From a bacterium (GTDB lineage: Bacteria; Zixibacteria; MSB-5A5; GN15; FEB-12): a stretch of 32,000 bases of DNA. Location of the stretch: contig JAHLKV010000005.1 in the NCBI GenBank assembly GCA_020444475.1, positions 299,080-331,079 on the forward strand, written 5' to 3'. The notes beneath the pieces were generated by a model. It made no database searches. It was given only the letters and a program-made list of their open reading frames with translations, and had not been told where the DNA came from. The position numbers and the translations under genes were made by a program. Of the stretch, positions 7,552 through 29,935 are shown piece by piece (positions within the stretch are counted from its first letter, which is position 1; each line of letters starts with the position of its first letter).

Positions 7552-7848
7552 ATGGAGCATTGTAGCCAAGCAAATGATCTTTTTAGTTCTCGCAATAATT
7601 ACGGGGCGATGGCGCCTCTGAAAGAACAAGAGAGGATCTGCCGCCAGCTGGGGAATGTGAAGGGCGTGGCAATATCGCTTGCCAATCAGTCCATCATCCT
7701 GGCCAAAGCGGGTCGGGTACAGGAAGGGTTGTCAAAGATAGAAGAAGCTCATCAGATGGCAGTCAAGTATGGTTACGCGGCTGTCGCGGCCCAAATCGAG
7801 CCAATGCTCTACGCCATCCGCCAGGCCGCGGAGGGGAGCAAACAGTGA
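7552..7848 (+). CDS. 98-aa stand-alone repeat/cap protein, paralogous to the C-terminus of the upstream STAND protein
   Basis: YGAMAPLKEQERICRQLGNVKGVAISLANQSIILAKAG.. follows the same 40-aa repeat grammar. The tail AAQIEPMLYAIRQAAE mirrors LRLEIEAVLKEIRQQIDE. AGGA lies 7 nt before ATG7552. Confidence 0.6.
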   Translation: MEHCSQANDLFSSRNNYGAMAPLKEQERICRQLGNVKGVAISLANQSIILAKAGRVQEGLSKIEEAHQMAVKYGYAAVAAQIEPMLYAIRQAAEGSKQ

Positions 7849-15735: not shown

Positions 15736-16059
15736 TCACTCCCCTCGGCGCCAGCGGCGCCAATCGGCGGCATGCTTCTTGATCCAGTCCATTGCCGCCG
15801 AGTCACCAACATCCATACCTGCCTTCTCGGACTCGATCCACTTATGCTTCTCTATCTCGCGCCATTGTTCGGTCAGTTCCTTGCGTAGCCGTTCATGCCG
15901 CCACTTCGAAGCGTGATGCACCAGCCAGTGGGCGATGGCGTAGGCCATCCCCACGTCGCGACCGGCCTCCTTTGACAGAAAGTACTTGTGTGTCTCGATT
16001 GCCTTCCGTTCCTCGCGGGTGAGTTCATCTTCCGAGTATTGATCGATCCTGTCACACAT
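15736..16059 (-). CDS. Small (107-aa) helical protein with an internal tandem duplication
   Basis: It has two copies of one motif: ETHKYFLSKEAGRDVGMAYAIAHWLVHHASKWR and EKHKWIESEKAGMDVGDSAAMDWIKKHAADWR. ATG16059 overlaps the upstream stop by 8 nt (ATGTGTGA), so it is preferred over the track's 16140 start. Confidence 0.65.
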   Translation of the reverse strand: MCDRIDQYSEDELTREERKAIETHKYFLSKEAGRDVGMAYAIAHWLVHHASKWRHERLRKELTEQWREIEKHKWIESEKAGMDVGDSAAMDWIKKHAADWRRWRRGE

Positions 16060-18016
16060 GTTGTTCGACCTCCGCAGATAATGCCCGTTGCTGATTCCGC
16101 CATCGCCAAAACTCCATGTGATGCAGGCGGGTGCGGGCATAGTGCAGGTGTGATGCGAGTTCGTCCGGGGCGACCACTACAAACTGACGAAATGTCTTCG
16201 ACGCCGCATCGGTGTCCCCAAGCGCGTCTTCGGCCAGTGCCTTCCAGTACAACGCAGCCGGGTGGCGGGCATCGATCGTGGCAGCTCGCTCGTAGCATTC
16301 GCGAGCTTGGGTACAGTGCGGATGCTCCGGGTCAAGGCCGGCCCCCCTCAACCCGGCCCCCTTCTGTCGCGCCCCCTTTAACAGGGCCTCAGCCTTGAGC
16401 ACCAGAGCATCCACGTGTCGATCGTTCTTTTCCAACACTCGGTTACAGACGGCAACAGCTTGCTTGAGCGATCTGGAGTCACCCATCGCGATTAGCGCCA
16501 GCGCCTTAGCGCACAAGGGTTCCGGAATGGCCGGGCTCGATACGGCTTCCGTTTTGAACTTCTCAAGCGCGGTCCTTAAATCGCCGTCGTGATAAGCCTG
16601 CAAACCTGTGACGTAGTCGTCTGTTGTTCGCTGAGCCTCCGATAACTGGCAACAGCTCAGCAATTCACTCAGATGACGCCGACGCGCCGCCACCAGATCG
16701 GCCTCGAATCTGGTTCCTTTGAAAAGGCCACTGTCATGATTCGCCAGTATCTCCTGCAGGCGTCGCTGTGCGTATTCGCGCTGCGGCTCACACGATGGCA
16801 GGGAGTCCATGACCAACTTCGCGTACGGTCTTGCGGCTTCAAACCATCGGCGCATTTCATCTTCGATGAGCGCTCTGAAGTACACCAGCGCGGGATTGTG
16901 CGGGTTGTTTACCGACACCTTCTCGAGGCAACGGACGGCATCCTCATCGCGCCCGAGCATCAGCAACGCCTCGGCTTTGGTCTGAGCAGCTGTGTAGTAT
17001 TCTGGCTTCTGCAGCAGAATAGCATCGCAAATGTCCACCGCTTCGGCGTGGCGGCCGAGCTGATTTAGTGCGTGAGCCCGGTTGTTCCCAGCGGCGAGGT
17101 CACGAGGATTATCGGTTACAGCCCGTGTGAAGCAGATCAGAGCTTTGCTCCACTCTCCGCGGCGACCGTGCCGGGCACCCTTTGACGCTTCGGGACTGAT
17201 TGTCCCGCCTCCAGACACGAAATGCTGTGTGTAGAGCCGATCAAGTTCTTCATTTCGCCTCGCAAGCAGGAAAGCAGTCTCGGCGCTCCGGCCGTCGCTA
17301 TCCCGAAGTTTGTAGGCGGCCCGCGTCTGCAGTTGGGCATCTCCATCCCACAAAGGTGGGCGTTCGACCCCAATTCGGTAAGCGAACAGTGCACGGTCGG
17401 TCATCCCGTGCGAACTGTGGCGATTGCCAAGATTCAGCCAGGGACGTACACATCTGCTGTCGGTCTGGATAGCCTTCAGATAGGTCTTGATCGCACCGGG
17501 GGTATCGCCCAACGATGCCTGCGAGGCGCCTTTGCCATTAAGCGCCTGAGCCAGCGAGGGATCGAGCAAAACGGCTTGATCGGCCAGAAAGATTGCTTTT
17601 CGGAAAAACTCCCTTGTGCCGGTGCTCCAGTGGGCTATGGTTTCGTACAACAGCAGGAGAGCACGATCTTTGTTGCACAGGGGGACGGAGGAATCCTCAT
17701 GGAACTCAGATGCGATGCGGGAAAGTTTCTTCGCCCATTTGTCATTTCTCTTGAAATCCACTCTGACGATGCGGGCGATACGCTGCGAAGGGTCAGAACT
17801 GTCGTTGAGAAGCCGCAGAACCGCGAAGACCCCGTCCCCCTTGTCAAAGTAATGCATTCGTTTCAAGACAGCCCCATCCATGGCTCTGACCGATTCACTG
17901 TCCAATGAACAATTCTGGTCGACGATATGGGTGGCCCGAAAGCCCACGTCCTGTCTAAGCAGGTAGAGAAAGAGACGATCCTCGGATGTAAACTGAATAT
18001 CAGCCAACTGATTCAT
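16052..18016 (-). CDS. TPR-repeat protein with an unassigned ~150-aa N-terminal domain
   Basis: Classical 34-aa TPR grammar, for example GDTPGAIKTYLKAIQTDSRCVRPWLNLGN and GRHAEAVDICDAILLQKPEYYTA. GAGGA lies 5 nt before ATG18016. Confidence 0.85.
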   Translation of the reverse strand: MNQLADIQFTSEDRLFLYLLRQDVGFRATHIVDQNCSLDSESVRAMDGAVLKRMHYFDKGDGVFAVLRLLNDSSDPSQRIARIVRVDFKRNDKWAKKLSRIASEFHEDSSVPLCNKDRALLLLYETIAHWSTGTREFFRKAIFLADQAVLLDPSLAQALNGKGASQASLGDTPGAIKTYLKAIQTDSRCVRPWLNLGNRHSSHGMTDRALFAYRIGVERPPLWDGDAQLQTRAAYKLRDSDGRSAETAFLLARRNEELDRLYTQHFVSGGGTISPEASKGARHGRRGEWSKALICFTRAVTDNPRDLAAGNNRAHALNQLGRHAEAVDICDAILLQKPEYYTAAQTKAEALLMLGRDEDAVRCLEKVSVNNPHNPALVYFRALIEDEMRRWFEAARPYAKLVMDSLPSCEPQREYAQRRLQEILANHDSGLFKGTRFEADLVAARRRHLSELLSCCQLSEAQRTTDDYVTGLQAYHDGDLRTALEKFKTEAVSSPAIPEPLCAKALALIAMGDSRSLKQAVAVCNRVLEKNDRHVDALVLKAEALLKGARQKGAGLRGAGLDPEHPHCTQARECYERAATIDARHPAALYWKALAEDALGDTDAASKTFRQFVVVAPDELASHLHYARTRLHHMEFWRWRNQQRALSAEVEQHV

Positions 18017-18026
18017 ATGCTATCCT

Positions 18027-19178
18027 CTAATCGATTCCATCTGAAACGGTGGGTCGCAGACGGTTGACCGCTTCAATAATACTCCTGGCTTGCGACTCGA
18101 GCGCGGCCGCGGCGTCGCAGAGCGCATCGTCACCTTTCAGGCTTGGAACGACCATGTCAAGTCTGTACAGGTTTGCGAACAGCAGCTTATAGATTGGCAC
18201 CTTCTGAGGTGGACATGGATCGCACCGAAGTTCCAGCTCAAGGTCAGACTTTGACTCATGGGCAAGACCAAACCAGCCGTCGAATGCGACCTCTGTCTCG
18301 AGAAACTCACGGAATGCCCTATTCAACCGAACGAAAAGCCGCGTCGCTATCTGGGGCAGGTTGGTGAGTTCCTGTCCGTCTCTCTTCGGCAAACTGTCGA
18401 GTAGCGCAGCAACCGCCTGCTGAGGGTAAACATCCTCAAAGAACCGTTTCTCGACGGGGCTTGCATGCACTCTGAGCGTACACAGATCAGCGCTCAGACA
18501 GAGGTACAAGATCTCCACTGCGCTCATGAACTGCGGCAGTTTGAAGTGATGGGCTGCGACGACCGCCGGACGTTGATCTTCATGCCACATGGCCGAGAGG
18601 CAGTAATGTCCTATGTGTTGCAGAAGGTCATCGGCGCAGGATTCTGGATTCTCAACGCCAGCACACTGCGTCGTCATGACTTCTGTACGGAATTGTGACA
18701 TGCGGAGGTAGTACGTTTCGTGGCCCATGTACATGTATCTGGCAAATCGGCTATCCGCAAACGGAAAGCCGGGACTTAGATAGATGTCCTCCACAACCAG
18801 GCTGTACTCCGACCAGTAATCGTGGGCTATCCGGCTCAGGCTGTAAGCCGGCAATCCGCGCGACGTTCTTCGAACGTCCAGGAAGTAGTGGCCGCTACCC
18901 ACCATCGATACCAGGCTTCGGAGTCTGTCCGGGCTAGTGAGAGGTGCTTCCTCCGGTTTGTGTTTAAGGGGTATGGCAACCGGCTCTCGCAGGAAGGCCG
19001 TGATCTCCTCCAGATCGTCGAATTCCCCACCGTTATTCTCAAGTTCCCTCCGGAAATCGTCGTACTTTCTCAAGCGGTCCACTAGTGGTCCCAAGACCTG
19101 CTTATCGTCCCGAAGCCCCGATTCTCTGCTATCGCAGTCGTACGAGGCACGTGAGCTTGTGTAGTAGTTGGACGTCAT
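18027..19178 (-). CDS. Hypothetical 383-aa protein (no recognisable motif, no obvious TM segment)
   Basis: Long ORF running from ATG19178 to TAG18027. It is packed 10 nt from the downstream gene and 29 nt from the upstream gene in the same operon. Confidence 0.75.
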   Translation of the reverse strand: MTSNYYTSSRASYDCDSRESGLRDDKQVLGPLVDRLRKYDDFRRELENNGGEFDDLEEITAFLREPVAIPLKHKPEEAPLTSPDRLRSLVSMVGSGHYFLDVRRTSRGLPAYSLSRIAHDYWSEYSLVVEDIYLSPGFPFADSRFARYMYMGHETYYLRMSQFRTEVMTTQCAGVENPESCADDLLQHIGHYCLSAMWHEDQRPAVVAAHHFKLPQFMSAVEILYLCLSADLCTLRVHASPVEKRFFEDVYPQQAVAALLDSLPKRDGQELTNLPQIATRLFVRLNRAFREFLETEVAFDGWFGLAHESKSDLELELRCDPCPPQKVPIYKLLFANLYRLDMVVPSLKGDDALCDAAAALESQARSIIEAVNRLRPTVSDGID

Positions 19179-19207
19179 ATGATCTTACTTCCCAGTATCT
19201 CTTGCCG

Positions 19208-21346
19208 TTAGAGGATCAACTGGTGACGTCGCTCTGCCATGCAGGAAGCTACATAGCGGCCAATCTTGTCGGTCACGGCAGTTTCATCTTCCAACTCGGC
19301 GTCGCTCAGAGCGATAGTCTTGTCAACAAGGTGCTCAAGCCCGGTCTCATTTGCGACACCAAGCCCGACGGTGGTAATGTGCAAGTCGGGTATGTCGTTT
19401 CGCCATGATCTCAGCAGTGAATGCACCTCCTCCTCGCCGCCAATGCCGGTATCAAACGACTCGTTCCATTTGCAGTCTGTGAGGTGGATCAGGTAGATGG
19501 TTCCACTTGTCAGCCTCCGAGCCTCGTCCATAATGTATGCCAGGGAGAGGGCGTCTTGCTGGATGCCTGTTCCGGTGTTCGGTAGTGATACCAGTGCTCT
19601 GGCGGCATCCTGATTGCTGGTAGCGACAGTTCGTCGTGGATGGGCAACCCATTGCACGAGAGGTCCCACCAAGCCGGAGCGTATGGCACCGCTGTGGTAC
19701 AGGCCCGCCAGCACCTGTACGTCGGATCGAGCGGTCGCCACTAGCCAGCTGCACGTGAGAATCTTGAGCACCCGCATCTGGTTCGAATCAAGAGACCCTG
19801 ACCCGTCGCAGGCGACTACCAGCAATGCCCGGCCGCGACGGTCCGGCTGACGGATCATCCGACTCCGGCGGAAGACGGCGGAGGACATATCGCCCAAAGC
19901 CAGCCTCGCCGGGTCAAGAGTACCACTCGTGCATACTCTCTGAGTTACGGGAACCCGCTCGACGCTGGGATATAGTATCCTTCGGATTGCATCGATGGTC
20001 GGGCGGCTTGCCTCCAGTAGCTCCGCTAACGCCACAATATCTTCCGAAAGCGCCACCGTGCAATCGAACTGCTCGCCGGTAACGGTCTCATCCGTGTCGA
20101 GGTTGACTGAGACGAGGTGTCCATCGGTCGGATTCCCCTCGATCGGACCGGTCTCGAACGCCCCGGAGATAAGAACGAACTCGAGCAGATCAGATCTCAT
20201 GTCCTCCCATTGAGCCTGTCTCCCAGAAGCCTCCCTCACGGCATTGTTGAAGTTAGCCAATGTGCGAGCACGCCATTCCTCATCGGACTCCTCTCCGAGA
20301 TGCTTCCTCAGAGCCATCAAGTCTCGCTCAAACTCGGATACCGGTTCGTCCGCCTTCCGTCCCAGCAAGTCGCTGACGTCGACCGAATCAAACAACCCAG
20401 GCTTTTGAGGTACGTCGGCAGGTCGTATGGCCAAGTTGTCATGATCCGTGGATGATCCCACTGCTTGTTCCCTGTGCAGCACTGTGTCCGTGTCGTGCGT
20501 CGACTTCTCACCATCCGCTTTCACCGCTGAACTCTCCTGTTCATCGAATGTATGGATCGTATCGAGGACGTTCTCACACAGCGCCTTGACCCACTCGCAT
20601 CCAAGATCCAGGAGGAGATCTGATCGGGTTGAGGAGAGCCGTTGTGTGAAACGCCGACAAACAGCTGCTGTGCTCGTCGCGAACAGGAAGGCAAGTGGAT
20701 GTTTGTTCATTGACAGATCTGTGGGTAGCACGTCGCCATACAGAACCGCAGTCTGGACAATATCCAGAATCGTATTGACCGAAGTTCGGTCACAGTGTGC
20801 GGCTACAAAGAGCCTGTATGCTTCTACCGGCTCCAGTCCCGATGCTCGCGACAGGTCTTCAAGCAATAGCCTGGTCTGGACACACCGAGTAATGCGCTTC
20901 GTGAGTTCCTCGAATACCGAACGGTTGATTGACCGATCGGCCGCATCCCCTGTTACTCCAAGAACTTCTCCAACGAATCGTTCGAGTAGTCGCCGGCTCG
21001 ATAATTCTCGATACTCAAGAAAAGCCGTGAGTCCAATAGCTGCAGAAGCTGCCATGCGAGCTGGATACGACGTGTAGCATGGGCTGAGCTGAGCCTGCAC
21101 CTTCGGCATCCCAGGAGACTGAGAAGGAATGCCAGCGTGAGTCGCCACAGCCCGCTGTGCCTCTCTTATCGCACGGGTCAGCAGACTCAGTGCCGAGAGT
21201 CGAATTCTATAGTCATTGGCAAACCGGAACGCGTCTCCAAGTCCGATCCCTGCCCAATCGGAGCGCGACCGTTTGCGTTCGATTGAACCGATGTTCGTAT
21301 GGTAGGCCTTAGTCTCGGCCCCGCCATGTCTAGATGTATCCGTCAT
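19208..21346 (-). CDS. NorD/CbbO-like protein with a C-terminal von Willebrand A domain
   Basis: ALLVVACDGSGSL carries the MIDAS DxSxS motif (19793-19807). NTGTGIQQD supplies the Thr and IHLTDCKW the Asp. The pre-vWA segment GTLDPARLALGDMSSAVFRR is typical of NorD/CbbO adaptors. ATG21346 lies 7 nt after the upstream stop; the track's 21481 start would overlap that gene. Confidence 0.85.
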   Translation of the reverse strand: MTDTSRHGGAETKAYHTNIGSIERKRSRSDWAGIGLGDAFRFANDYRIRLSALSLLTRAIREAQRAVATHAGIPSQSPGMPKVQAQLSPCYTSYPARMAASAAIGLTAFLEYRELSSRRLLERFVGEVLGVTGDAADRSINRSVFEELTKRITRCVQTRLLLEDLSRASGLEPVEAYRLFVAAHCDRTSVNTILDIVQTAVLYGDVLPTDLSMNKHPLAFLFATSTAAVCRRFTQRLSSTRSDLLLDLGCEWVKALCENVLDTIHTFDEQESSAVKADGEKSTHDTDTVLHREQAVGSSTDHDNLAIRPADVPQKPGLFDSVDVSDLLGRKADEPVSEFERDLMALRKHLGEESDEEWRARTLANFNNAVREASGRQAQWEDMRSDLLEFVLISGAFETGPIEGNPTDGHLVSVNLDTDETVTGEQFDCTVALSEDIVALAELLEASRPTIDAIRRILYPSVERVPVTQRVCTSGTLDPARLALGDMSSAVFRRSRMIRQPDRRGRALLVVACDGSGSLDSNQMRVLKILTCSWLVATARSDVQVLAGLYHSGAIRSGLVGPLVQWVAHPRRTVATSNQDAARALVSLPNTGTGIQQDALSLAYIMDEARRLTSGTIYLIHLTDCKWNESFDTGIGGEEEVHSLLRSWRNDIPDLHITTVGLGVANETGLEHLVDKTIALSDAELEDETAVTDKIGRYVASCMAERRHQLIL

Positions 21347-21353
21347 ATGGTTC

Positions 21354-22364
21354 TCAGAATAGATTAGCCGTGAGTGTCTTGTCCTCTTCCGGATTGCGCA
21401 TGCCGAACACCTCCTGCATGACCGATGGCAGGAGCTCCTTGTCCTTGGTATCCGCATTCCCAAGAATGGTGGCTTGCGCAACTTGCTGATGGGTCATGCC
21501 CGGCATGCTGTGCGCCTTTCGCAGGAAGGACAGATACCCGTGGATTGTCGGCGGCACCAGAGACTGGAGATTTCCTTCGCTCCGATGGCGACGAATGAGT
21601 CGGCCCAGCAGCACTATCTGGTTCACCAGTTCGGATTCAACGCCGATCTGCAGCGACTGTTCCGCCAGGCTCTGCAGTACCACCGATTCCAGCTCACTTG
21701 GCAGGTAGTCGATCGTAAGGTTGGAGCCGAACCGACGGCGCAGAGCATCATCAAGCGTCACCAATGTGTGGGTGGAGTCGTGTGCTGCCTGGTAATTGCT
21801 GTCCGCGATCCACGCTATTCCGTGACCGCTAATCCGTCTTCCGTCGGGCAGAACAATGTCGTCGTGCGTCATGAGGTCCAGTAGTCCTCCCTGGACGCTG
21901 GCAGCGTGTACCCGGCCCATTTCCCTCAGCCATACTACATTGTATGAGTCCTCGGGCGCGTCGGCCGCCTCGGTCAAGGACTGGACGAGTTGACTTGGTT
22001 CGTCAAATGTCGTGCCGTTCCTGATCGCGCGCCGCTGATACAACTCTCCGGGGGTTTCGTACACAGCCATCTCGACGGGGAAGAGCCGCACGGGCTTGAC
22101 CCGGTGACCGAGTTCCGAGCAGATTGCTTCGAAGTTTGCCGGAACCGTGCAGACGGCCTCGATCAGGCTGCTCTTTGCGGACCCGGTTGGACCGCTGACG
22201 TGTATGAACTCGTGAGCAACAATATCGTCCACCAGAGATTGGAGGTGCCACTTCAGCATATACAGCGGATGGCCATGCGTCGTGGGCAGAAGCTGCACGA
22301 GATCGGTTGGTCCCGCCTTGCGATACTCATCCTCGTTATCGACTCGAAAAACCTGGGCTGTCAT
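21354..22364 (-). CDS. AAA_5 (MoxR/CbbQ/NorQ-like) ATPase
   Basis: Walker A GPTGSAKS at 22170-22193. The Walker B position reads VVWLRE (21921-21938). LLDLMTHDDIVLPDGRRISGHGIAWIADSNY fits the AAA_5 core. AAGGGGA precedes ATG22364. Confidence 0.9.
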   Translation of the reverse strand: MTAQVFRVDNEDEYRKAGPTDLVQLLPTTHGHPLYMLKWHLQSLVDDIVAHEFIHVSGPTGSAKSSLIEAVCTVPANFEAICSELGHRVKPVRLFPVEMAVYETPGELYQRRAIRNGTTFDEPSQLVQSLTEAADAPEDSYNVVWLREMGRVHAASVQGGLLDLMTHDDIVLPDGRRISGHGIAWIADSNYQAAHDSTHTLVTLDDALRRRFGSNLTIDYLPSELESVVLQSLAEQSLQIGVESELVNQIVLLGRLIRRHRSEGNLQSLVPPTIHGYLSFLRKAHSMPGMTHQQVAQATILGNADTKDKELLPSVMQEVFGMRNPEEDKTLTANLF

Positions 22365-22383
22365 TCTGCAATCCCCTTCTCAG

Positions 22384-24645
22384 TTACTTGTGTAGAGTCA
22401 ATGCCAGTTTCGTGGTATCCGCAAATCCCACGTCCAGAGTTGACCCGGTGCATTCTGCGAGTTCGCTGCGAATCGTCAGCAGGGCCTGCGTGACCAGCAA
22501 ACGGGTCTGTTCAGCAACAACCCGGGCACCGTGGCTTATGAGACCAGATCCCAGTGACGCTACGACTTTCTCTCCGGTCTCGGGCGAAATTGTGATATGC
22601 GGAACAGAGACGCCAAGCACCCGCAGACCTCTCTTGAGCGATGTCAACAGTTCCCGTTCGGCTATCATTGCCAGATCCGATCCGGTGAGCGGAGCAAACA
22701 GAATTGGCCGTCCCACGCGGCTAAGGAATGCGTTCGAAAACAGTGACTTGATCTCTGCCTCGATGTTCTGCTGCAGCACAGCGCCCGATGGTGTTCCGCT
22801 AAAGCCTATGCTTCGCCGGAGTCGTTCATCCCGTCCTTCGGGGAGGTTGATGGTGAAGGCGAAAATCAGATTCGCACACGAGAACATCGCTCCCGTCGCG
22901 CTTTGCGCCTCACCTGTATCCAGTAACTGCAGGAATAAGTCAGCCAGGTGACTCCGTACAGCGACCGGAGCGTGGTCCAGGTCACTGACTTCGACTATGG
23001 CCCCAACTGAGTGTTTGGCTGCCTTTTCCAGGCGACCGGCCTCGTAAGAACCCACGATCCCCCGACCGGATCCCAGCAACTGGGCGCTCGCCGTGTGGTA
23101 ATCGGGCTGACTTGCCGCATCTATGTTGATGTGCGGAATCTTGAGGTAGCGAGCCAGCAAGGCCGCACTTTCGGACTTTCCAGTGCCCGGCGTCCCTTGG
23201 GCACAATAGCGTATCGGTTGATGGTCGGCGCGCGTGAGGCACTCTGTCTGAAGTCGACCGACCAGTTGCGAGAGAGCCTCGTCTTGCGCATACAAGTGCG
23301 CTGACAGGAATACCAGCAGGTCGGACGCGAGCAATCCTCGCACGAAATTCTCGTGAACCTGCGGCTTCCTTCTGCCGCGCGGTTTGTCGTGAATGCCGGC
23401 CAGCGTTTCTTGTTTACCGATCAGTCTATTGACAAACGCGGCAATCGACTCTCCATTCACCGCCATCTCTGAGTCGTCATGCCTCGTTACCCTTGCCGCA
23501 ATAACGGGAAGCATTCGCTGCCGCTCTGTCTCGGCCAGGGGGCGAAGTGCATCCAGCGCAGTCTCGTAAGCCCGCTCGACCCTTGCCCCCGATACTCCCC
23601 CTGATTGTCGGGCCGCAGATTCAACCGCGAACCGCGCCAATACATCGAATGGTATATCGGGCACGTAAGAAACCACCGGCAGCAGCGGATCACTCACTCC
23701 GCCCTGACCGCCATGAAAAACTGCCTGCAATTGCCGATAGTGCCCTGTGAATACCACCGGCTTATCCGATGACGACAGGATAGAAAGCAAACTCTGCAGT
23801 TGGTCGCCAAGTTCGTATGGACTCGTTGCTAGTGCGACACGACTTGCCGGCACCACCAGCCGGCCTGGTGCCTGCCTGGCCAGTTCAACGATATTCTTCG
23901 CACTGAGAGCAGGTGCCAGTACCATGCCAAGAGTCACACCACGGGTCTCTGCTGATCGTGCTAGTGATGCCATCGCAATATCCAGTATGATTGGCGATTC
24001 CGCGGCGACCGCCACGTTCAATGAACTTTCGAGCAAGTCCATGACCTCGCATGCCCAGGAACCCAGAGTCACTATGGAGTCATCATTTGTTTGATCCAGT
24101 GGCCACACCGGGCTCAGAACCTGGCCAAAATCAGCATACAGGCGCTCGAGTTCAGCAGCACTGTGCTGACGCGGTAACTCCGATTGAACCCATCGTGCGA
24201 AATTGTCGATCGCTTCCAACTCCGCCATCAGAACTGCCTCACGCGACATACTCAGGGGAGAGGTCGCCTTTACCTTCAGGCCGAGCCAGTACGTGGTCGT
24301 CTTCTTGACTGCGTTCGAGGTCGGCGGCAGCGAACGAACACCTTCACTGAGGCCAGACATATGTTTCCAGAGCGATGCCAGCGGAGGTTTGACCTCAGTA
24401 GGAGCTTCCAGACACTCGAGTTTCATCCATAGAATCGGCCCCTCGTGTAGTCGTGCGACTACGGACCTCACCCCTTGTCGCTCGCTTGTCGGTTCGGCTG
24501 TCCGAAACGACCGCCCATCGGGCAGCTTCATGATCTCGAAGCCGTAGACTCTCTTTACCAGTTCACTGACCTGCCACAGCACATCCGCAGCGCCCACATC
24601 TGCCGCTGTTGGTTGACACGCGGGGTTGGTTTGAGATTCTGTCAT
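22384..24645 (-). CDS. ClpA/ClpB-NBD2-like AAA+ protein with a ~470-aa unassigned N-terminal region
   Basis: QDEALSQLVGRL..IRYCAQGTPGTGKSESAALLARYL has its Walker A at 23173-23196. LLGSGRGIVGSYEAGRLEKAAK parallels Clp's LIGAPPGYVGYEEGGQLTE. IVEVSDLDHA (22975-22998) sits at the Walker B position. FLSRVGRPILFAPL parallels Clp's FLNRIDxIIxFxPL. Confidence 0.85.
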   Translation of the reverse strand: MTESQTNPACQPTAADVGAADVLWQVSELVKRVYGFEIMKLPDGRSFRTAEPTSERQGVRSVVARLHEGPILWMKLECLEAPTEVKPPLASLWKHMSGLSEGVRSLPPTSNAVKKTTTYWLGLKVKATSPLSMSREAVLMAELEAIDNFARWVQSELPRQHSAAELERLYADFGQVLSPVWPLDQTNDDSIVTLGSWACEVMDLLESSLNVAVAAESPIILDIAMASLARSAETRGVTLGMVLAPALSAKNIVELARQAPGRLVVPASRVALATSPYELGDQLQSLLSILSSSDKPVVFTGHYRQLQAVFHGGQGGVSDPLLPVVSYVPDIPFDVLARFAVESAARQSGGVSGARVERAYETALDALRPLAETERQRMLPVIAARVTRHDDSEMAVNGESIAAFVNRLIGKQETLAGIHDKPRGRRKPQVHENFVRGLLASDLLVFLSAHLYAQDEALSQLVGRLQTECLTRADHQPIRYCAQGTPGTGKSESAALLARYLKIPHINIDAASQPDYHTASAQLLGSGRGIVGSYEAGRLEKAAKHSVGAIVEVSDLDHAPVAVRSHLADLFLQLLDTGEAQSATGAMFSCANLIFAFTINLPEGRDERLRRSIGFSGTPSGAVLQQNIEAEIKSLFSNAFLSRVGRPILFAPLTGSDLAMIAERELLTSLKRGLRVLGVSVPHITISPETGEKVVASLGSGLISHGARVVAEQTRLLVTQALLTIRSELAECTGSTLDVGFADTTKLALTLHK

Positions 24646-24715
24646 TGGTCCATGCCGAGGTTTGTCGGCGCCCCGTTAAGATTGTTGATTGCACATTTCG
24701 GTGACACTCTTCCAT

Positions 24716-24731
24716 TGCACACTCCGTGCCT
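24716..24731 (-). promoter_or_regulatory. Candidate sigma54 (-24/-12) promoter for the minus-strand operon
   Basis: The minus strand reads AGGCACGGAGTGTGCAAT, against the consensus TGGCACG-N4-TTGCW. GG and GC are separated by exactly 10 nt. The site is intergenic, about 70 nt upstream of ATG24645, and divergent from a sigma54-activator-type gene. Confidence 0.5.
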
Positions 24732-24811
24732 GCGCGAAACACGAACCTGGATCCGCTTGTAAGACAGTCCGTTATCCAGTCGTGCGGTTTCCTGCGGGAT
24801 CATGACATCCG

Positions 24812-24840
24812 TTGACTTGGGATTGCCCCGATGTTATCTT
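24812..24840 (+). promoter_or_regulatory. Candidate sigma70-type promoter for the activator-like gene
   Basis: TTGACT (24812-24817), a 17-nt spacer, then TATCTT (24835-24840). It lies about 80 nt upstream of ATG24920. Confidence 0.35.
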
Positions 24841-24919: not shown

Positions 24920-26614
24920 ATGCAGATAGACACCATTCGATTTTATGGGTATCCGTCCGCCAACTCACCTTCCCCCTATATTCTCGCTTTCGAAACGGCT
25001 GACGACCTGAAAAGAGCTCGTGAGAACATCCGCCTTGGCGCATTGCTCATGCGAAACGATGATCTCGAAGAACTCTGTGAATACGAAACCGTCATCCGCG
25101 ATCGTGGGAAGAAACACCCCGCCAGGAGTCTCCTTAGCTATTTCCTTCACGGGAAGCGGACCCGCTCCGATACCCGCATGCCGATTCTTCGCTGTGAGTA
25201 CATCGAAGCGGGGCGGTTGATAGCGAGTGTCGCGGGCTTGCTTGACCATGCAGCAGACCGGGGAGTACGCAACACCTACATCCTGGGGGTTCAGCCAGAC
25301 ATCTTCGAGGAGTGCTTGAGAAGTATCGAGGGCGATTCGGCAGGGTATGGCGGTGCCCATTGTGCTGCCTCGAAGGCAGAACTGACGGATCGCCCAGTAG
25401 CGGAAGAGATGCTGGATATTCTGACCATCAGGGAGGTTCCGGAAGCAGTCTCTTCGCTGTACCTCGGTACTTCGAAAGAGGTACAGCTGGTGCATCAGCT
25501 TATCCTGCGTACGGCCGAAATCACCGATCCGGTCCTCATCGTTGGAGAGAGTGGCACAGGAAAGGAACTGGTTGCCCGCTCGATACATGAGCAGAGTACA
25601 AGACGAACGGGGCCGTTTCGGGCGGTCAACTGCGGCGCCATTCCCACCGAACTCTTTGAATCGGAACTATTCGGAACCACGAAGAGCGCATTTACGAATT
25701 CTGCCGAGAGGGAGGGCCTCTGGGCGCAGGCGAATGGCGGCACGCTGTTTCTCGATGAAATCGGCGATCTGTCGCTTCTCCATCAAGTAAAGATTTTGCG
25801 CGCTCTGGAAGACGGTTACGTGCGTCGGGTCGGCGGCAACATCGATGAGCCGATCGATGCCAGGATTGTCAGCGCGACCAATCGGGATTTGGCCGTCATG
25901 GTCAAGGAGGGTCAATTCCGGGAGGATCTTTATTATCGGATTCACGGCATCGTGATCTATACGCCGGCGCTGCGAAACCACCCGGACGATATTCCACAAA
26001 TGGCGATCAGTTTCTGGTCGAAGATCGCGGGGAAGAAGACGAAGGCTCTGTCGACGGCGGTGTTGGAGGATCTCAAGGCCCGACGCTGGCTCGGCAACGG
26101 TCGGGAGTTGAGGATGTTCCTTTCGTCTCTGCACGGGCTCTTCAGAAACGAGACGATCACGCCTCACCACCTGCGGGTGGTCGACATGCTTTCCGGGTTT
26201 CGGTCGCGGAAGGGTTCGCAGGCGCAGTACGAAAAGAACCTCCGCAAGGTTGATCAGTTACGGCACTACCGGAGAATCATGGAAGTACTCTCTTCGCTCC
26301 GTACCTCGCTTCGTCCCGTGCTGATCGAGAACCTGACCGACCTTCGCACGGTTACCCTCGCGCGAGTGGTCATCAACAGCTATGCGGAGAAACTCGACTC
26401 ACTCGCCGATGAACCCGAGTACTTCAGCAGTATCGCCTCGCGCCGGGTGGTGATTGAACTGGCCGATGCTCTGCGTGACTTCTCGAAATTTCTCGAGACC
26501 GGCGCCGGACAGGTAAGGGAGTACTGGCAGCGCAATGTGCAGTCGCGCTACCAGAATGTCGACTCCGGCTGCTTCACCGAAATCCAGACCCTCCTCGACG
26601 AGGTCGAGAAATGA
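24920..26614 (+). CDS. Sigma54-interaction-domain (NtrC-type, bEBP-like) AAA+ protein with a variant GAFTGA loop and no recognisable HTH
   Basis: Central-domain motifs present: GESGTGKELVARSIH (25544-25567), ESELFGTTKSAFTNS (loop at 25682-25702), GGTLFLDEIGDL, DARIVSATNRDL, FREDLYYRI, PALRNHPDDI, GNGRELR. The ~190-aa N-terminal and ~150-aa C-terminal regions match nothing I recognise. Confidence 0.9.
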   Translation: MQIDTIRFYGYPSANSPSPYILAFETADDLKRARENIRLGALLMRNDDLEELCEYETVIRDRGKKHPARSLLSYFLHGKRTRSDTRMPILRCEYIEAGRLIASVAGLLDHAADRGVRNTYILGVQPDIFEECLRSIEGDSAGYGGAHCAASKAELTDRPVAEEMLDILTIREVPEAVSSLYLGTSKEVQLVHQLILRTAEITDPVLIVGESGTGKELVARSIHEQSTRRTGPFRAVNCGAIPTELFESELFGTTKSAFTNSAEREGLWAQANGGTLFLDEIGDLSLLHQVKILRALEDGYVRRVGGNIDEPIDARIVSATNRDLAVMVKEGQFREDLYYRIHGIVIYTPALRNHPDDIPQMAISFWSKIAGKKTKALSTAVLEDLKARRWLGNGRELRMFLSSLHGLFRNETITPHHLRVVDMLSGFRSRKGSQAQYEKNLRKVDQLRHYRRIMEVLSSLRTSLRPVLIENLTDLRTVTLARVVINSYAEKLDSLADEPEYFSSIASRRVVIELADALRDFSKFLETGAGQVREYWQRNVQSRYQNVDSGCFTEIQTLLDEVEK

Positions 26615-28967: not shown

Positions 28968-29162
28968 GTGACTGGAGCAGGTGTGAGAGATCGCGTGTTT
29001 ATAAGCAACAGCCACAAAGATCGTACGTGGTTGGGGCGGCTTCGTGTCGAGCTGGAACCCGGAATCAGTGAGAAACGGGACGATTGCTGGGACGACTCCG
29101 ACTCTTGGCTTCATGCAAGTGCTGTGTTCGAGAGGACGAGAGCGGGAGGCGGAGCCGAGTGA
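28968..29162 (+). pseudogene. 64-codon TIR N-terminal fragment (relic or mini-ORF)
   Basis: RVFISNSHKDRTWLGRLRVELEPGISEKRDDCWDDS matches the opening of bacterial TIR_2-type domains, then the similarity ends. None of the three frames continues a TIR. The stop TGA overlaps GTG29159 of the next gene. Confidence 0.45.
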
Positions 29163-29935
29163 ACGCGAAACAGGGCAGTTCAAAGACCGGCGCATGGATT
29201 TTCGTCTCCCACTCGCATCGAGATCTGGGGCAAGTCCGCCAAATCCGCAATGAGCTCGAGAAGCTTGGCCATAATCCGCTGCTCTTTTTCCTCAAATGCC
29301 TGAGCAGCGACGATGCCCGCCTGCCCCAACTCATTCGCGACGAGATTGAAGCCCGCGAATGGTTCATCCTCTGCGATAGCCCCAACGCCAGGCGCTCCGG
29401 CTGGGTGCAGCAGGAGAGGAAGTTGATCAAGGCGATGACGGGAAAGGTCATCGAGACGATAGATTTGAGCAAGGATCCCCAAACCGAACTTCACAAACTG
29501 ATCCGTCTTTCCAAACGTGCCACGGTCTTTCTTTCCTATGCCCGGCAAGACCGCGAAATCGCAGAGCGGATACGACGCGCTCTGCTTGAGCATGATTTCG
29601 GCGTTTGGTTCGATGCGTCGGTCCCAGCGGGGCAGGATTGGGCGGTGGCCATCCAGTCGGCGATTGATGACGCGGTCGCCCGTGGTTTCGTGCTTGTCCT
29701 GTTGAGTCCGGCATCACTGGCAAGCCAGTTTTGCAAGCATGAAACAGAGTATGCTCTCCAGCTCGCTGTACGCTCGCAACGTAGTAACGTCATCCCGGTT
29801 GTGGTCGCTCCGTGTGCGCACGAGGCGTTGCCGGTGCCGCTTGGGAACATCCAATTGTTCGACCTGACAACCGGCCCGTTTGACGAACGTATGAGCTCGC
29901 TCATTCACAACCTGAAGACTCGCAAAATGGAGTGA
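29159..29935 (+). CDS. Tandem TIR-TIR protein
   Basis: TIR 1: WIFVSHSHRD..SGWVQQERKL, with Glu at 29414-29416. TIR 2: VFLSYARQD..SQFCKHETEYA, with Glu at 29741-29743. GGGAGG at 29144-29149 lies 9 nt before GTG29159, so GTG29159 is preferred over the track's TTG29084. Confidence 0.85.
   Translation: MNAKQGSSKTGAWIFVSHSHRDLGQVRQIRNELEKLGHNPLLFFLKCLSSDDARLPQLIRDEIEAREWFILCDSPNARRSGWVQQERKLIKAMTGKVIETIDLSKDPQTELHKLIRLSKRATVFLSYARQDREIAERIRRALLEHDFGVWFDASVPAGQDWAVAIQSAIDDAVARGFVLVLLSPASLASQFCKHETEYALQLAVRSQRSNVIPVVVAPCAHEALPVPLGNIQLFDLTTGPFDERMSSLIHNLKTRKME

What the first reader, a model, noticed from the sequence alone, without database searches (positions are those of the whole stretch)
15736..24645. 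Main candidate system: six-gene operon of ClpB-NBD2-like AAA+ / MoxR-like AAA_5 / NorD-like vWA / unknown / TPR / mini-protein
All six genes are on the minus strand, with junctions of 19, 7, 29, 10 and -8 nt, and ribosome-binding sites (AAGGGGA, GAGGA) where I read the junctions. They therefore form one transcription unit.

AAA_5 + vWA pairs (CbbQ/CbbO, NorQ/NorD) are known protein-remodelling chaperone pairs, and vWA-MoxR modules have also been proposed as thresholding switches in conflict systems. Here the pair is joined to three further parts: a second, Clp-type AAA+ with a large unassigned N-terminal region; a 383-aa protein with no recognisable motif; and a TPR scaffold.

The operon is wedged between TIR-STAND genes and lacks any metabolic client gene (no Rubisco, NOR, Cox or chelatase). 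I do not recognise this composition as a named defence or chaperone system.
Basis: partly seen in the sequence, partly recalled or inferred. Interest (0 to 1): 0.85.

Follow-up and report, generated by a model that had tools for sequence, protein, structure and literature searches.

The report
Sigma-54-gated Clp–MoxR–vWA gene module
The six-gene operon is real, but its conserved heart is a rare, unnamed five-gene module (a sigma-54 activator, a ClpA-like unfoldase, a MoxR-type ATPase, a vWA adaptor and a protein of unknown fold) found in many bacterial phyla, usually beside immune-type genes, so it is probably an inducible protein-remodelling or protein-degrading conflict system.

Summary
Six minus-strand genes (15736-24645) have junctions of 19, 7, 29, 10 and -8 nt and the stated ribosome-binding sites.

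Only four of the six genes (753, 336, 712 and 383 aa) are conserved, together with the divergent sigma-54 activator. This set occurs in about 47 species genomes across at least 8 phyla. The TPR and mini-protein genes are add-ons found only in the closest relatives.

- **753-aa protein:** ClpA/ClpC-like rather than ClpB-like. It has a novel N-domain, a dead first ATPase tier, and a live second tier that keeps an invariant [I/F/M/L]-G-F at ClpA's ClpP-docking loop.
- **336-aa protein:** CobS/MoxR-like.
- **712-aa protein:** gets no Pfam hit, but has an in-register MIDAS motif (weak hhalign match to ViaA).
- **383-aa protein:** an orphan family with no fold match.
- **Promoter:** a -24/-12 promoter lies upstream of the first gene in 15 of 38 loci, against 1.5% of control windows.
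- **Neighbours:** RyR-domain, TIR, STAND, RelA/SpoT-SLOG and NUDIX proteins. No metabolic client gene is linked.

PADLOC v2 has no matching named system. The closest description is the "FtsH-type" vWA-MoxR ternary system of Kaur et al. 2020, but here the third ATPase is Clp-type.

Verdict: a new variant of a known kind. Function is inferred, not shown.

The parts
24920..26614 (+). Divergent sigma-54 enhancer-binding protein (bEBP, 564 aa). It has a family-specific N-domain (~135 aa), a sigma-54-interaction AAA+ domain (GAFTGA loop reads SAFTNS here; family consensus GAFTxA), and a family-specific helical C-domain with no detectable Fis-type HTH.
   Evidence: Pfam Sigma54_activat 2.2e-59. NCBIfam bEBP families about 1e-70. 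Orthologues lie next to the module in 31 of 37 loci that have enough upstream DNA, and about 25 of these are divergent and adjacent. Alignment. The N- and C-domains give no significant Pfam or PDB hit.
24716..24731 (-). Candidate sigma-54 promoter AGGCACGGAGTGTGCA (GG-N10-GC), 86 nt upstream of the first gene's ATG.
   Evidence: The -24 GGCA and -12 TGC elements are conserved in the alignment with L005 and L002. A site scoring at least 10 of 12 lies 32-89 nt upstream of the first gene in 15 of 38 related loci, against 1.5% of 3000 random 380-nt windows from the same loci.
24810..24840 (.). Conserved intergenic element (CGTTGACTT on the + strand, invariant in window, L005 and L002). It overlaps a sigma-70-like TTGACT-17-TATCTT promoter that faces the bEBP gene. 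It is either the activator's own promoter or an upstream activator site.
   Evidence: The assignment is inferred.
22384..24645 (-). g1: ClpA/ClpC-like two-tier AAA+ protein (753 aa). It has a private alpha+beta N-domain (aa ~14-156), a P-loop-less pseudo-ATPase tier (aa ~189-390) and an active D2 tier (aa ~447-753).
   Evidence: Pfam AAA_2 4e-10 (26 of 26 family members). NCBIfam ClpA 1.1e-18. AlphaFold2 model pLDDT 83. Foldseek matches ClpA/ClpC/ClpB chains at E ~1e-21 over 610-730 columns. hhalign to ClpA gives 98.6% probability, to FtsH 63.6%. The first tier is supported by the structure model only; hhalign finds no sequence match to ClpA D1.
22801..22809 (-). Codons for I613-G614-F615 of g1. 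This tripeptide aligns with the IGL ClpP-docking loop of ClpA.
   Evidence: BLASTP and hhalign both place RRSIGFSG opposite ClpA RKSIGLIQ. G and F are invariant in 26 of 26 family members and position 613 is I/F/M/L. The loop has low pLDDT between two helices.
23173..23196 (-). g1 D2 Walker A, GTPGTGKS (aa 484-491). Other D2 features: the Walker B region reads E-V-S-D-L-D-H (SD in place of DE) and pore loop 1 reads G-R-G-I-V-G-S (Ile in place of ClpA's Tyr).
   Evidence: Column counts; alignment to ClpA.
21354..22364 (-). g2: MoxR/CobS-class AAA_5 ATPase (336 aa). Its P-loop variant is GPTG[ST]AKS and its Walker B reads hhWLRE.
   Evidence: Pfam AAA_5 in 21 of 22 members. Family profile against PDB: CobS 1.3e-7, MoxR-like 2r44 1.5e-5. 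Motif counts.
19208..21346 (-). g3: 712-aa protein with a long N-terminal region of unknown fold and a C-terminal vWA-like domain (aa ~500-712).
   Evidence: No Pfam, NCBIfam or PDB profile hit. The C-terminal profile gives hhalign against the E. coli ViaA vWA domain of E 4.5e-4, probability 33%, over 165 columns, with DxSxS, T and D in register. About 100 full-length homologues.
19793..19807 (-). Codons for the MIDAS D514-G-S516-G-S518 of g3. The further MIDAS residues T593 and D624 are conserved.
   Evidence: Invariant and near-invariant columns; in register with ViaA VDTSGSM.
18027..19178 (-). g4: 383-aa orphan protein. It is always the fourth gene, always standalone, and has many conserved Arg/Asp/Glu/Trp positions.
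   Evidence: 251 representative clusters among 1.84 billion, all 330-400 aa. No Pfam hit in 73 members. AlphaFold2 pLDDT 77. No Foldseek match in PDB or BFVD (best E 0.7 and 0.17). Present in 43 loci.
16052..18016 (-). g5: TPR protein (654 aa), a lineage-specific accessory gene.
   Evidence: Pfam TPR families. Found only in the window and in L002/L003, L005 and L006.
15736..16059 (-). g6: 107-aa protein with two copies of a DUF4032-type motif. It overlaps g5 by 8 nt and has its own GGAGG. A lineage-specific accessory gene.
   Evidence: Pfam DUF4032 5.6e-8. Sequence. Found only in the closest relatives, where it is 83-93% identical.

Best explanation
The unit is a conserved, horizontally scattered five-gene module: a dedicated sigma-54 activator plus g1-g4.

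Proposed mechanism:
- The module stays transcriptionally silent until the activator is switched on through its private N-domain. The signal is unknown.
- The activator then drives a -24/-12 promoter in front of g1.
- The products form a two-motor protein-remodelling machine. The vWA protein (g3) captures a target peptide or acidic residue through its MIDAS site. The MoxR/CobS-like ring (g2) pulls on it.
- The ClpA-like hexamer (g1) recognises the target or an adaptor through its private N-domain and threads it through the single live ATPase tier.
- g1 keeps the ClpA-type docking tripeptide, so it probably hands substrates to the cell's own ClpP. This would make the response proteolytic.
- g4 is either the specificity factor or the latent effector or substrate that the machine acts on.

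The genomic company (RyR-domain, TIR, STAND, RelA/SpoT-SLOG and NUDIX proteins) and the rare, patchy distribution point to a biological-conflict (immune or abortive) role rather than a metabolic one.

Shown here: gene order and its conservation, the domain identities, promoter conservation and neighbour content.

Inferred: complex formation, ClpP coupling, the trigger, the target and the defence role.
For: - **Gene order:** g1-g2-g3-g4 are kept in the same order in about 40-49 loci from Acidobacteriota, Desulfobacterota, Nitrospirota, Planctomycetota, Lentisphaerota/Kiritimatiellia, Hydrogenedentota, Myxococcota and Pseudomonadales.
- **Activator:** a bEBP lies next to the module in 31 of 37 informative loci.
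- **Promoter:** a sigma-54 promoter is enriched upstream of g1, in 15 of 38 loci against 1.5% of controls.
- **g1:** ClpA-type D2 with an invariant [IFML]-G-F at the IGL loop and a dead first tier.
- **g2:** closest to CobS/MoxR.
- **g3:** MIDAS motif in register with ViaA.
- **Neighbours:** among the 104 nearest neighbours the commonest domains are RyR (8), TIR_2 (6), RelA_SpoT (4), STAND AAA_16 (4) and NUDIX (3). No Rubisco, NOR, Cox or chelatase appears among the 25 commonest neighbour domains. RyR-domain proteins occur in 18 of 49 loci.
- **Rarity:** 47 loci among 185,579 species genomes.
- **Precedent:** the architecture parallels the predicted FtsH-type vWA-MoxR conflict systems, including the GxxxTAKS-type MoxR P-loop.
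Against: - No recognisable toxin or effector domain is present.
- g4 is a fixed one-to-one orthologue, not a swappable or hypervariable effector as is typical of conflict systems.
- Both ATPases carry non-canonical Walker B motifs (SD in g1, RE in g2), so their ATPase cycles may be unusual.
- The g1 pore loop lacks the aromatic residue.
- No ClpP gene is linked, and the tripeptide alone does not prove docking.
- The vWA assignment rests on a weak profile match (33% probability).
- Six of 37 loci, and the cultured Desulfosarcina ovata locus, lack an adjacent bEBP.
- About half of the loci show no good -24/-12 site under my simple scoring.
- STAND and TIR genes are common in these large genomes, so part of the neighbour signal could be background.
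- There are no experimental data at all.
Confidence: 0.5

Rival explanations
1. The module is a maturation or proteostasis chaperone set for an endogenous client, working like CobS/CobT, NorQ/NorD or CbbQ/CbbO. On this reading g4 is a conserved enzyme or complex subunit that g2/g3 activate and g1 recycles, under sigma-54 stress or nutritional control.
For: Characterised AAA_5 + vWA pairs are mostly maturation factors (established knowledge; summarised in PMC7159879 section 8). The nearest solved relative of g2 is CobS. g4 is an invariant one-to-one partner with many conserved polar residues, as an enzyme would have. Sigma-54 regulons are often metabolic.
Against: No metabolic or respiratory gene is recurrently linked in 38 non-redundant loci. 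g4 has no detectable relative outside the module. The module is present in only about 0.03% of species genomes, with a phylum-hopping distribution. The recurrent neighbours are RyR, TIR, STAND and nucleotide-signalling proteins.
Confidence: 0.22
2. The module is already catalogued. It would be the 'simple' subtype of the FtsH-type vWA-MoxR ternary conflict systems of Kaur et al. 2020, with g4 corresponding to their standalone effector (NEFF1), so nothing here is new.
For: The published description fits closely: MoxR with a GxxxTAKS P-loop, a highly divergent vWA behind a long N-terminal region, a third protein with an inactive N-terminal AAA+ domain, an active C-terminal one and a private N-domain, and standalone effectors. 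Those systems were found in deltaproteobacteria and planctomycetes. PF00004 (classical AAA) also hits 25 of 26 g1 relatives, though more weakly than AAA_2.
Against: The g1 active domain is Clp-D2 type: hhalign gives 98.6% (E 7.5e-16) to ClpA against 63.6% (E 6.8e-5) to FtsH, a GAR motif sits where I read ClpA's sensor-2 (read by eye, not aligned), and an IGF loop is present. That paper never mentions sigma-54 or RyR, and mentions NtrC only once, in its introduction, although these are the module's commonest partners. No radical-SAM, Ubl-ligase or caspase genes appear among the 25 commonest neighbour domains. g4 relatives are all standalone and confined to this module, whereas NEFF1 is said to be shared with VMAP systems. 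The paper's accession lists were not available to me.
Confidence: 0.18
3. The core is not a self-contained system. It would be the regulated output arm of a larger RyR-domain network: neighbouring RyR proteins (RelA/SpoT-SLOG-RyR with NUDIX, TrkA_N-RyR, AAA-RyR) make or sense a nucleotide signal, and are the clients or triggers of the g1-g4 machine.
For: RyR-domain proteins with three different head modules flank the module in 18 of 49 loci and are its most frequent neighbour domain. In several loci they abut g4 or the bEBP directly.
Against: More than half of the loci have no RyR gene within 10 kb. No core protein contains a cryptic RyR domain that could mediate homotypic contact (hhalign probabilities below 1%). 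No background frequency of RyR genes was computed.
Confidence: 0.1

Closest known systems
FtsH-type vWA-MoxR ternary conflict systems (Kaur, Burroughs, Iyer & Aravind 2020, eLife 9:e52696; computational prediction)
   Same: MoxR-class ATPase with the unusual GxxxTAKS-type P-loop; a highly divergent vWA protein with a long N-terminal extension; a third protein made of an inactive AAA+ domain, an active AAA+ domain and a private N-terminal domain; standalone extra proteins; occurrence in deltaproteobacteria and planctomycetes.
   Different: Here the third ATPase is ClpA/ClpC-D2 type, with a ClpP-docking-type tripeptide, rather than FtsH type. A dedicated sigma-54 activator and promoter are part of the unit. 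None of the Ubl-ligase, caspase, radical-SAM or peptide-processing partners appears among the 25 commonest neighbour domains. RyR-domain neighbours are not described for that system.
ClpA / ClpC (class I Hsp100 unfoldases that dock on ClpP)
   Same: Two-tier fold (Foldseek E ~1e-21). D2 has Walker A and sensor-1, plus an Arg finger and a GAR sensor-2 motif that I read by eye. A [LIVMF]-G-F tripeptide sits at the position of ClpA's IGL loop.
   Different: The first tier has lost Walker A and B. There is no Clp_N domain; instead there is a private alpha+beta N-domain. The pore-loop Tyr is replaced by Ile, and Walker B DE by SD. The family is discrete: the next-best sequence hits drop from E 1e-108 to 1e-6.
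CobS/CobT, NorQ/NorD, CbbQ/CbbO, RavA/ViaA (AAA_5 + vWA chaperone pairs)
   Same: A ~330-aa AAA_5 ATPase followed by a ~600-750-aa partner whose C-terminus is a MIDAS-bearing vWA domain. CobS is the nearest solved relative of g2, and ViaA aligns in register with the g3 C-terminus.
   Different: No client enzyme genes are linked. g3 is not recognised by CobT, NorD or VWA profiles. Walker B reads RE. Two further obligatory partners (g1, g4) are present.
RtcR-type bEBPs (sensor domain + sigma-54 AAA+ domain controlling a stress or immune-linked operon)
   Same: A divergent sigma-54 activator with an N-terminal non-receiver sensor-like domain controls an adjacent operon. PADLOC's RtcR_PspF2 model matches the AAA+ part at 4.3e-82.
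   Different: The N-domain is not recognisable as CARF, and the C-terminus has no detectable HTH. The controlled genes are unrelated to RtcAB.

Membership tests
vWA-MoxR ternary conflict systems, FtsH subtype (Kaur et al. 2020) | Adjacent MoxR-clade AAA+ gene and vWA gene | tested here: met
   g2 hits AAA_5 in 21 of 22 members and CobS/MoxR in the PDB. The g3 C-terminus has a MIDAS motif in register with ViaA, though the profile match is weak.
vWA-MoxR ternary conflict systems, FtsH subtype (Kaur et al. 2020) | MoxR P-loop variant GxxxTAKS | tested here: met
   GPTG[ST]AKS, with Ala in 21 of 22 members and Lys in 22 of 22. The feature is quoted.
vWA-MoxR ternary conflict systems, FtsH subtype (Kaur et al. 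2020) | Third protein with an inactive N-terminal AAA+ domain and an active C-terminal AAA+ domain | tested here: met
   In the AlphaFold2 model, aa 189-390 form an alpha/beta tier without Walker A or B, and aa 447-753 form an intact tier. Foldseek aligns it to two-tier Clp chains. The first tier is supported by the model only.
vWA-MoxR ternary conflict systems, FtsH subtype (Kaur et al. 2020) | The active domain is FtsH-type (classical AAA clade) | tested here: not met
   hhalign gives ClpA 98.6% (E 7.5e-16) against FtsH 63.6% (E 6.8e-5). Pfam AAA_2 scores better than PF00004. A GAR sensor-2-type motif (read by eye) and an IGF loop are present.
vWA-MoxR ternary conflict systems, FtsH subtype (Kaur et al. 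2020) | Partner effectors: NEFF1, radical SAM, or Ubl tri-ligase plus caspase | tested here: inconclusive
   No radical-SAM, E1/E2/JAB or caspase family is among the 25 commonest domains of the 104 nearest neighbours. I could not test whether g4 equals NEFF1, because no NEFF1 sequence or model was at hand.
Metabolic AAA_5 + vWA chaperone pairs (CbbQO, NorQD, CobST, CoxDE) | Linkage to the client enzyme genes (Rubisco, NOR, CobN, CO dehydrogenase) | tested here: not met
   The Pfam census of the two nearest genes on each side in 38 loci shows none among the 25 commonest domains. The window itself has none.
Metabolic AAA_5 + vWA chaperone pairs (CbbQO, NorQD, CobST, CoxDE) | vWA partner recognised by the family's profiles (CobT_C, VWA_CoxE, VWA and similar) | tested here: not met
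   No Pfam hit in 23 g3 relatives even at E up to 1. No NCBIfam hit.
ClpA/ClpC class I Hsp100 | Two AAA+ tiers, both nucleotide-binding | tested here: not met
   The first tier lacks a P-loop, and Walker B is replaced by F-T-G.
ClpA/ClpC class I Hsp100 | Clp_N N-terminal domain | tested here: not met
   No Clp_N hit in 26 members at E up to 1. hhalign of the N-domain against ClpA gives 0.5%.
ClpA/ClpC class I Hsp100 | [LIV]-G-[FL] ClpP-docking loop in D2 | tested here: met
   The sequence motif is aligned to ClpA IGL, with G-F in 26 of 26 members. Actual ClpP binding cannot be tested with these tools.
ClpA/ClpC class I Hsp100 | Aromatic pore-loop-1 residue (GYVG) | tested here: not met
   G-I-V-G, with Ile in 23 of 26 and Leu or Val in the rest.
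Bacterial enhancer-binding proteins (sigma-54 activators) | Sigma-54 interaction AAA+ domain with a GAFTGA-type loop, and a cognate -24/-12 promoter | tested here: met
   PF00158 2.2e-59. Consensus GAFTxA, SAFTNS in the window. Promoter enrichment.
Bacterial enhancer-binding proteins (sigma-54 activators) | C-terminal Fis-type HTH DNA-binding domain | tested here: not met
   No HTH_8 or other HTH hit in Pfam or the PDB for the C-terminal 140 aa. There is only a weak winged-helix-like hit in the N-domain (E 0.036).
Named or candidate defence systems in PADLOC-DB v2.0.0 | Component HMM matches | tested here: not met
   The only hit is a generic AAA+ match of g1 to PDC-M37B (1.3e-7). g2, g3, g4 and g6 have none.

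The most novel reading that the evidence does not exclude
This would be a previously unrecognised class of inducible bacterial immune machine. A sigma-54 activator senses a signal, possibly a nucleotide made by the neighbouring TIR or RelA/SpoT-SLOG-RyR proteins. It switches on a MoxR-vWA 'grabber' and a one-motor ClpA-like unfoldase that commandeers the housekeeping ClpP. The machine then destroys a defined set of host or invader proteins, with the orphan-fold g4 as specificity factor or pro-effector and RyR-domain proteins as dedicated partners.
Probability: 0.22. Interest if true: 0.85.

Novelty: new variant of a known kind. Interest (0 to 1): 0.66.

Why it matters
If the inference holds, this is a compact module present across many phyla that joins three AAA+ engines of different clades (bEBP, MoxR and Clp) into one regulated unit.

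It would be the first vWA-MoxR 'thresholding' system with an explicit transcriptional gate and a plausible proteolytic output through ClpP.

It also offers three further leads:
- a handle on bacterial RyR-domain proteins, whose function is unknown;
- two protein families (g4 and the g1 N-domain) with no detectable relatives, g4 also having no fold match;
- a natural single-motor ClpA variant (dead D1, Ile pore loop, SD Walker B), which is of interest to people who study AAA+ mechanism.

One cultured carrier exists (Desulfosarcina ovata subsp. sediminis, AP021876.1), so the idea can be tested.

Tried and rejected
- **g4:** Pfam on the window protein and on 73 relatives, NCBIfam, PADLOC, Foldseek against PDB and BFVD, and a full-library HMMER profile search. 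None links it to a known family. I considered an HD-phosphohydrolase-like reading of the GHE...WH[ED]DQR motifs and dropped it: the His residues are not among the positions conserved in at least 90% of the 73-sequence alignment, and no fold match appeared.
- **g3:** the full-length and C-terminal profiles found nothing against PDB sequences. Only the direct hhalign to ViaA gave a weak, in-register match.
- **g1 first tier:** I thought by eye that it resembled the ClpA D1 'GGQ' segment. hhalign does not support this (0.1%), so the claim is withdrawn.
- **Cryptic RyR domain in core proteins:** rejected.
- **bEBP N-domain as CARF, and C-domain as HTH:** no support.
- **Phage carriage:** no relative of g3 in 2.9 million viral contigs.
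- **The 532-aa gene upstream of the D. ovata module:** unrelated to the window's 532-aa ORF and to the bEBP.
- **Literature:** searches for sigma-54 with anti-phage terms, MoxR/vWA/ClpA, and RyR/SLOG found no description of this module.
- **Kaur et al. accession lists:** the supplement held as text contains only the multicellularity table, so the lists could not be compared.

Full report
**1. Observation**

| Gene | Coordinates | Length |
|---|---|---|
| g1 | 22384-24645 | 753 aa |
| g2 | 21354-22364 | 336 aa |
| g3 | 19208-21346 | 712 aa |
| g4 | 18027-19178 | 383 aa |
| g5 | 16052-18016 | 654 aa |
| g6 | 15736-16059 | 107 aa |

- The junctions are 19, 7, 29, 10 and -8 nt.
g6 has GGAGG.
- Within the operon, neither sigma-70-like promoters nor terminators exceed the number found in shuffled sequence.
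- An independent gene call on the same contig gives the same lengths.
- NCBI's own annotation of this MAG shortens g1 to 658 aa and g3 to 615 aa. Homologue lengths of 753 and 709-712 aa support the longer calls.

**2. What is conserved**

g4 looked almost unique in a word-indexed search, with 9 clusters. Every one of those sat behind g3.

A scan of one genome per species (185,579 species) with a g3 profile returned 47 loci. They come from Acidobacteriota, Desulfobacterota, Nitrospirota, Brocadiia and Pirellulales, Lentisphaerota, Kiritimatiellia and Victivallales, Hydrogenedentota, Myxococcota and Pseudomonadales.

I called ORFs locally, ran BLASTP and clustered the results. Counts of loci holding each gene:

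| Gene | Loci |
|---|---|
| g3 | 49 |
| g4 | 43 |
| g1 | 42 |
| g2 | 40 |

- Shortfalls are mostly due to contig ends.
- The order is nearly always g1-g2-g3-g4.
- The TPR gene g5 occurs in only 4 loci, and g6 only in the closest relatives.
- A homologue of the divergent sigma-54 activator is present in 31 of 37 loci with enough upstream DNA. About 25 of these are divergent and adjacent.

So the evolutionary unit is the bEBP plus g1-g4. The window's g5 and g6 are local additions.

**3. Regulation**

The activator (24920-26614) has a strong sigma-54 interaction domain (2.2e-59). Its N-domain (~135 aa) and C-domain (~140 aa) are specific to this family and match nothing significantly. No Fis-type HTH is detectable.

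On the minus strand, 86 nt upstream of g1, lies AGGCACGGAGTGTGCA, a GG-N10-GC site. On its own this is not significant: the window has 22 two-mismatch matches against 16 expected. Two comparisons strengthen it:
- The -24 and -12 elements are conserved in alignments with relatives that are 60-70% identical.
- A site scoring at least 10 of 12 lies 32-89 nt upstream of g1 in 15 of 38 loci, against 1.5% of 3000 random windows from the same loci.

The operon is therefore very probably sigma-54 dependent and controlled by its neighbour.

In the window and in L002 the bEBP gene overlaps the start of a TIR-STAND gene (ATGA at 26611-26614). The two genes are probably co-transcribed.

**4. The proteins**

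*g1 (753 aa).*
- Sequence profiles see only a Clp-D2 domain: AAA_2 at 4e-10 and ClpA at 1.1e-18.
- The family is discrete. About 88 full-length relatives reach E 1e-108 or better, then hits drop to ClpA at 1e-6.
- An AlphaFold2 model (26 sequences, pLDDT 83) shows three parts: an alpha+beta N-domain (aa 14-156), a second alpha/beta tier (aa 189-390) and the D2 tier.
- Foldseek aligns 610-730 columns to two-tier ClpA, ClpC and ClpB chains at E ~1e-21.
- The first tier has no P-loop, and F-T-G sits where Walker B would be. Its identity rests on the model only.
- D2 keeps Walker A (26 of 26) and sensor-1. By eye I also read the Arg finger and a GAR motif where ClpA has sensor-2.
- Both BLASTP and hhalign place RRSIGFSG opposite ClpA's RKSIGLIQ. 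That is the IGL loop which docks ClpA on ClpP and which ClpB lacks (established knowledge). G-F is invariant and the preceding residue is I, F, M or L.
- Two deviations are also family-wide. Walker B DE is replaced by SD, and the pore-loop Tyr by Ile.
- Against FtsH the profile scores only 63.6%, compared with 98.6% for ClpA.

*g2 (336 aa).*
- It is a divergent AAA_5 ATPase.
- CobS (1.3e-7) and a MoxR-like protein (1.5e-5) are its nearest solved relatives.
- Its P-loop is GPTG[ST]AKS and its Walker B reads hhWLRE.

*g3 (712 aa).*
- No profile recognises it.
- Its C-terminal 210 aa carry near-invariant D514-x-S-x-S, T593 and D624.
- hhalign to the vWA domain of E. coli ViaA puts all three motifs in register. 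The match is weak: E 4.5e-4 and 33% probability over 165 columns.
- I accept a vWA/MIDAS domain as likely, but not proven.

*g4 (383 aa).*
- It has 251 representative clusters among 1.84 billion. All are standalone and 330-400 aa long.
- It has no Pfam family.
- Its AlphaFold2 model (pLDDT 77) has no Foldseek match in the PDB or in BFVD.

*Conservation within the families* (mean pairwise identity):

| Region | Identity |
|---|---|
| g1 D2 | 66% |
| g3 vWA | 54% |
| g2 | 53% |
| g1 N-domain | 29% |
| g4 | 27-38% |

**5. Company**

I scanned the two nearest genes on each side of the module in 38 non-redundant loci, 104 proteins in all. The commonest Pfam domains were:

| Domain | Proteins |
|---|---|
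| RyR | 8 |
| TIR_2 | 6 |
| RelA_SpoT | 4 |
| STAND AAA_16 | 4 |
| NUDIX | 3 |

WD40 and TPR arrays were also common. No Rubisco, nitric-oxide reductase, CO dehydrogenase or chelatase was among the 25 commonest domains.

RyR-domain proteins occur in 18 of 49 loci, with three kinds of head: RelA/SpoT-SLOG (with an adjacent NUDIX gene), TrkA_N, and a MoxR-like AAA domain. None of the core proteins hides a RyR domain.

The window itself carries:
- a DUF4062-STAND gene;
- a RyR-AAA gene;
- a TIR-NB-ARC-TPR gene;
- a TIR-STAND gene;
- a tandem-TIR ThsB-like pair.

g3 has no relative in viral contigs.

**6. Mechanism**

I propose an inducible, two-motor protein-remodelling or protein-degradation module used in biological conflict.

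- Shown here: the conserved gene set, the sigma-54 gate, the Clp-, MoxR- and (weakly) vWA-type identities, the docking-type tripeptide, and the immune-type neighbourhood.
- Inferred from established MoxR-vWA and ClpAP biology:
  - g3 captures a target through its MIDAS site.
  - The g2 ring remodels it.
  - g1 threads it through D2 and, via the IGF loops, into the cell's own ClpP.
  - g4 is the specificity factor or the latent effector or substrate.
- Unknown: the trigger, the target and the outcome.

Points against the model:
- There is no recognisable toxin.
- g4 is fixed rather than variable.
- Both ATPases have odd Walker B motifs.
- No ClpP gene is linked.
- Some loci lack a bEBP, including the cultured Desulfosarcina ovata.

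**7. Comparison with what is known**

PADLOC-DB v2 has no matching system, and literature searches found none.

The closest description is the FtsH-type vWA-MoxR ternary system of Kaur et al. 2020. It has the same architecture and the same odd MoxR P-loop. This locus differs in four ways:
- The third ATPase is Clp-D2 type.
- It has a dedicated bEBP and promoter.
- It has RyR neighbours.
- It shows none of the Ubl-ligase, caspase or radical-SAM partners among its commonest neighbour domains.

That paper never mentions sigma-54 or RyR, and mentions NtrC only once, in its introduction. I could not compare accession lists, so I leave about 18% that the family was already included there.

The module works like, but is not a member of, the CobST, NorQD and CbbQO pairs, because no client gene is linked. 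Likewise it works like, but is not a member of, ClpA/ClpC, because D1 is dead, there is no Clp_N domain and the pore loop is non-aromatic.

**8. Verdict**

Corrections: the unit is five genes including the activator, the Clp protein is ClpA-like rather than ClpB-like, and there is a described analogue.

This is a new variant of a known kind (vWA-MoxR conflict systems). It has several unusual parts and a testable ClpP hypothesis. Function remains inferred.

Noticed in passing
L013, L015, L016, L018, L026, L029, L035, L040, L045 (e.g. L016:8868-9602 and 9599-9901): In about nine independent loci the MoxR gene g2 is split into two ORFs of ~240 aa (alpha/beta core) and ~100 aa (lid domain). The second ORF has its own GGAGG and ATG, and often an ATGA overlap with the first. 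In the eight junctions I read, this looks like a natural gene fission rather than a sequencing error.
   Followed up: partly
window 8000-11155 (+); L030:1799-4333 and 4281-4721; L027:13291-15108; L023:13485-16274: RyR-domain proteins with interchangeable heads (MoxR-like AAA, RelA/SpoT + SLOG with an adjacent NUDIX gene, TrkA_N) are the module's most frequent neighbours, in 18 of 49 loci. The function of bacterial RyR domains is unknown, and this association may be a handle on it.
   Followed up: partly
window 26611-26614: The stop codon of the bEBP gene overlaps the start of a 728-aa TIR-STAND gene (ATGA). The same arrangement is seen in L002. The activator and a TIR-STAND sensor therefore seem to be co-transcribed.
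   Followed up: no
window 15736-16059 (g6): The 107-aa DUF4032-like mini-protein is the most conserved gene among close relatives, at 83-93% identity against 56-78% for g1, g3 and g4 (g2 reaches 78-91%). It contains two copies of a K[WY]xxSExAGxDVG...W motif. It is absent from all distant loci.
   Followed up: no
window 24688-24700 and 24714-24726: A 13-nt direct repeat (ATTGCACATTTCG / ATTGCACACTCCG) with 26-nt spacing. The second copy is the -12 half of the sigma-54 promoter. The first looks like a degenerate second -12 element with GT in place of GG at -24.
   Followed up: no
window 29084-29935 and 29939-31120 (+): A 283-aa protein with two TIR domains (ThsB-like in PADLOC), followed 3 nt later by a 393-aa protein with a TIR 'effector' match. 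This is a separate Thoeris-like or TIR pair in the same island.
   Followed up: no
window 7552-7848 (+): A 98-aa ORF that is 36% identical to part of the neighbouring DUF4062-STAND protein. It is probably a gene fragment or remnant of a duplicated STAND gene.
   Followed up: no
L045:1254-5551; L014:254-3055; L029:1398-3473: Some loci carry a second, distant g1-like Clp protein (23-27% identity where measured, in L029 and L045). In L045 it sits directly behind its own bEBP-like gene and upstream of the regular module.
   Followed up: no
L042:8907-15549: Permuted gene order, g2-g3-g4-g1, in a Victivallales genome with no bEBP within 10 kb. This shows that the four genes stay together even when rearranged.
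   Followed up: no
window 19208-21346 and 22384-24645: The NCBI annotation of the source MAG (locus tags KQH82_...) calls truncated versions of g3 (615 aa) and g1 (658 aa). Homologue lengths show that the 712-aa and 753-aa starts are right.
   Followed up: yes
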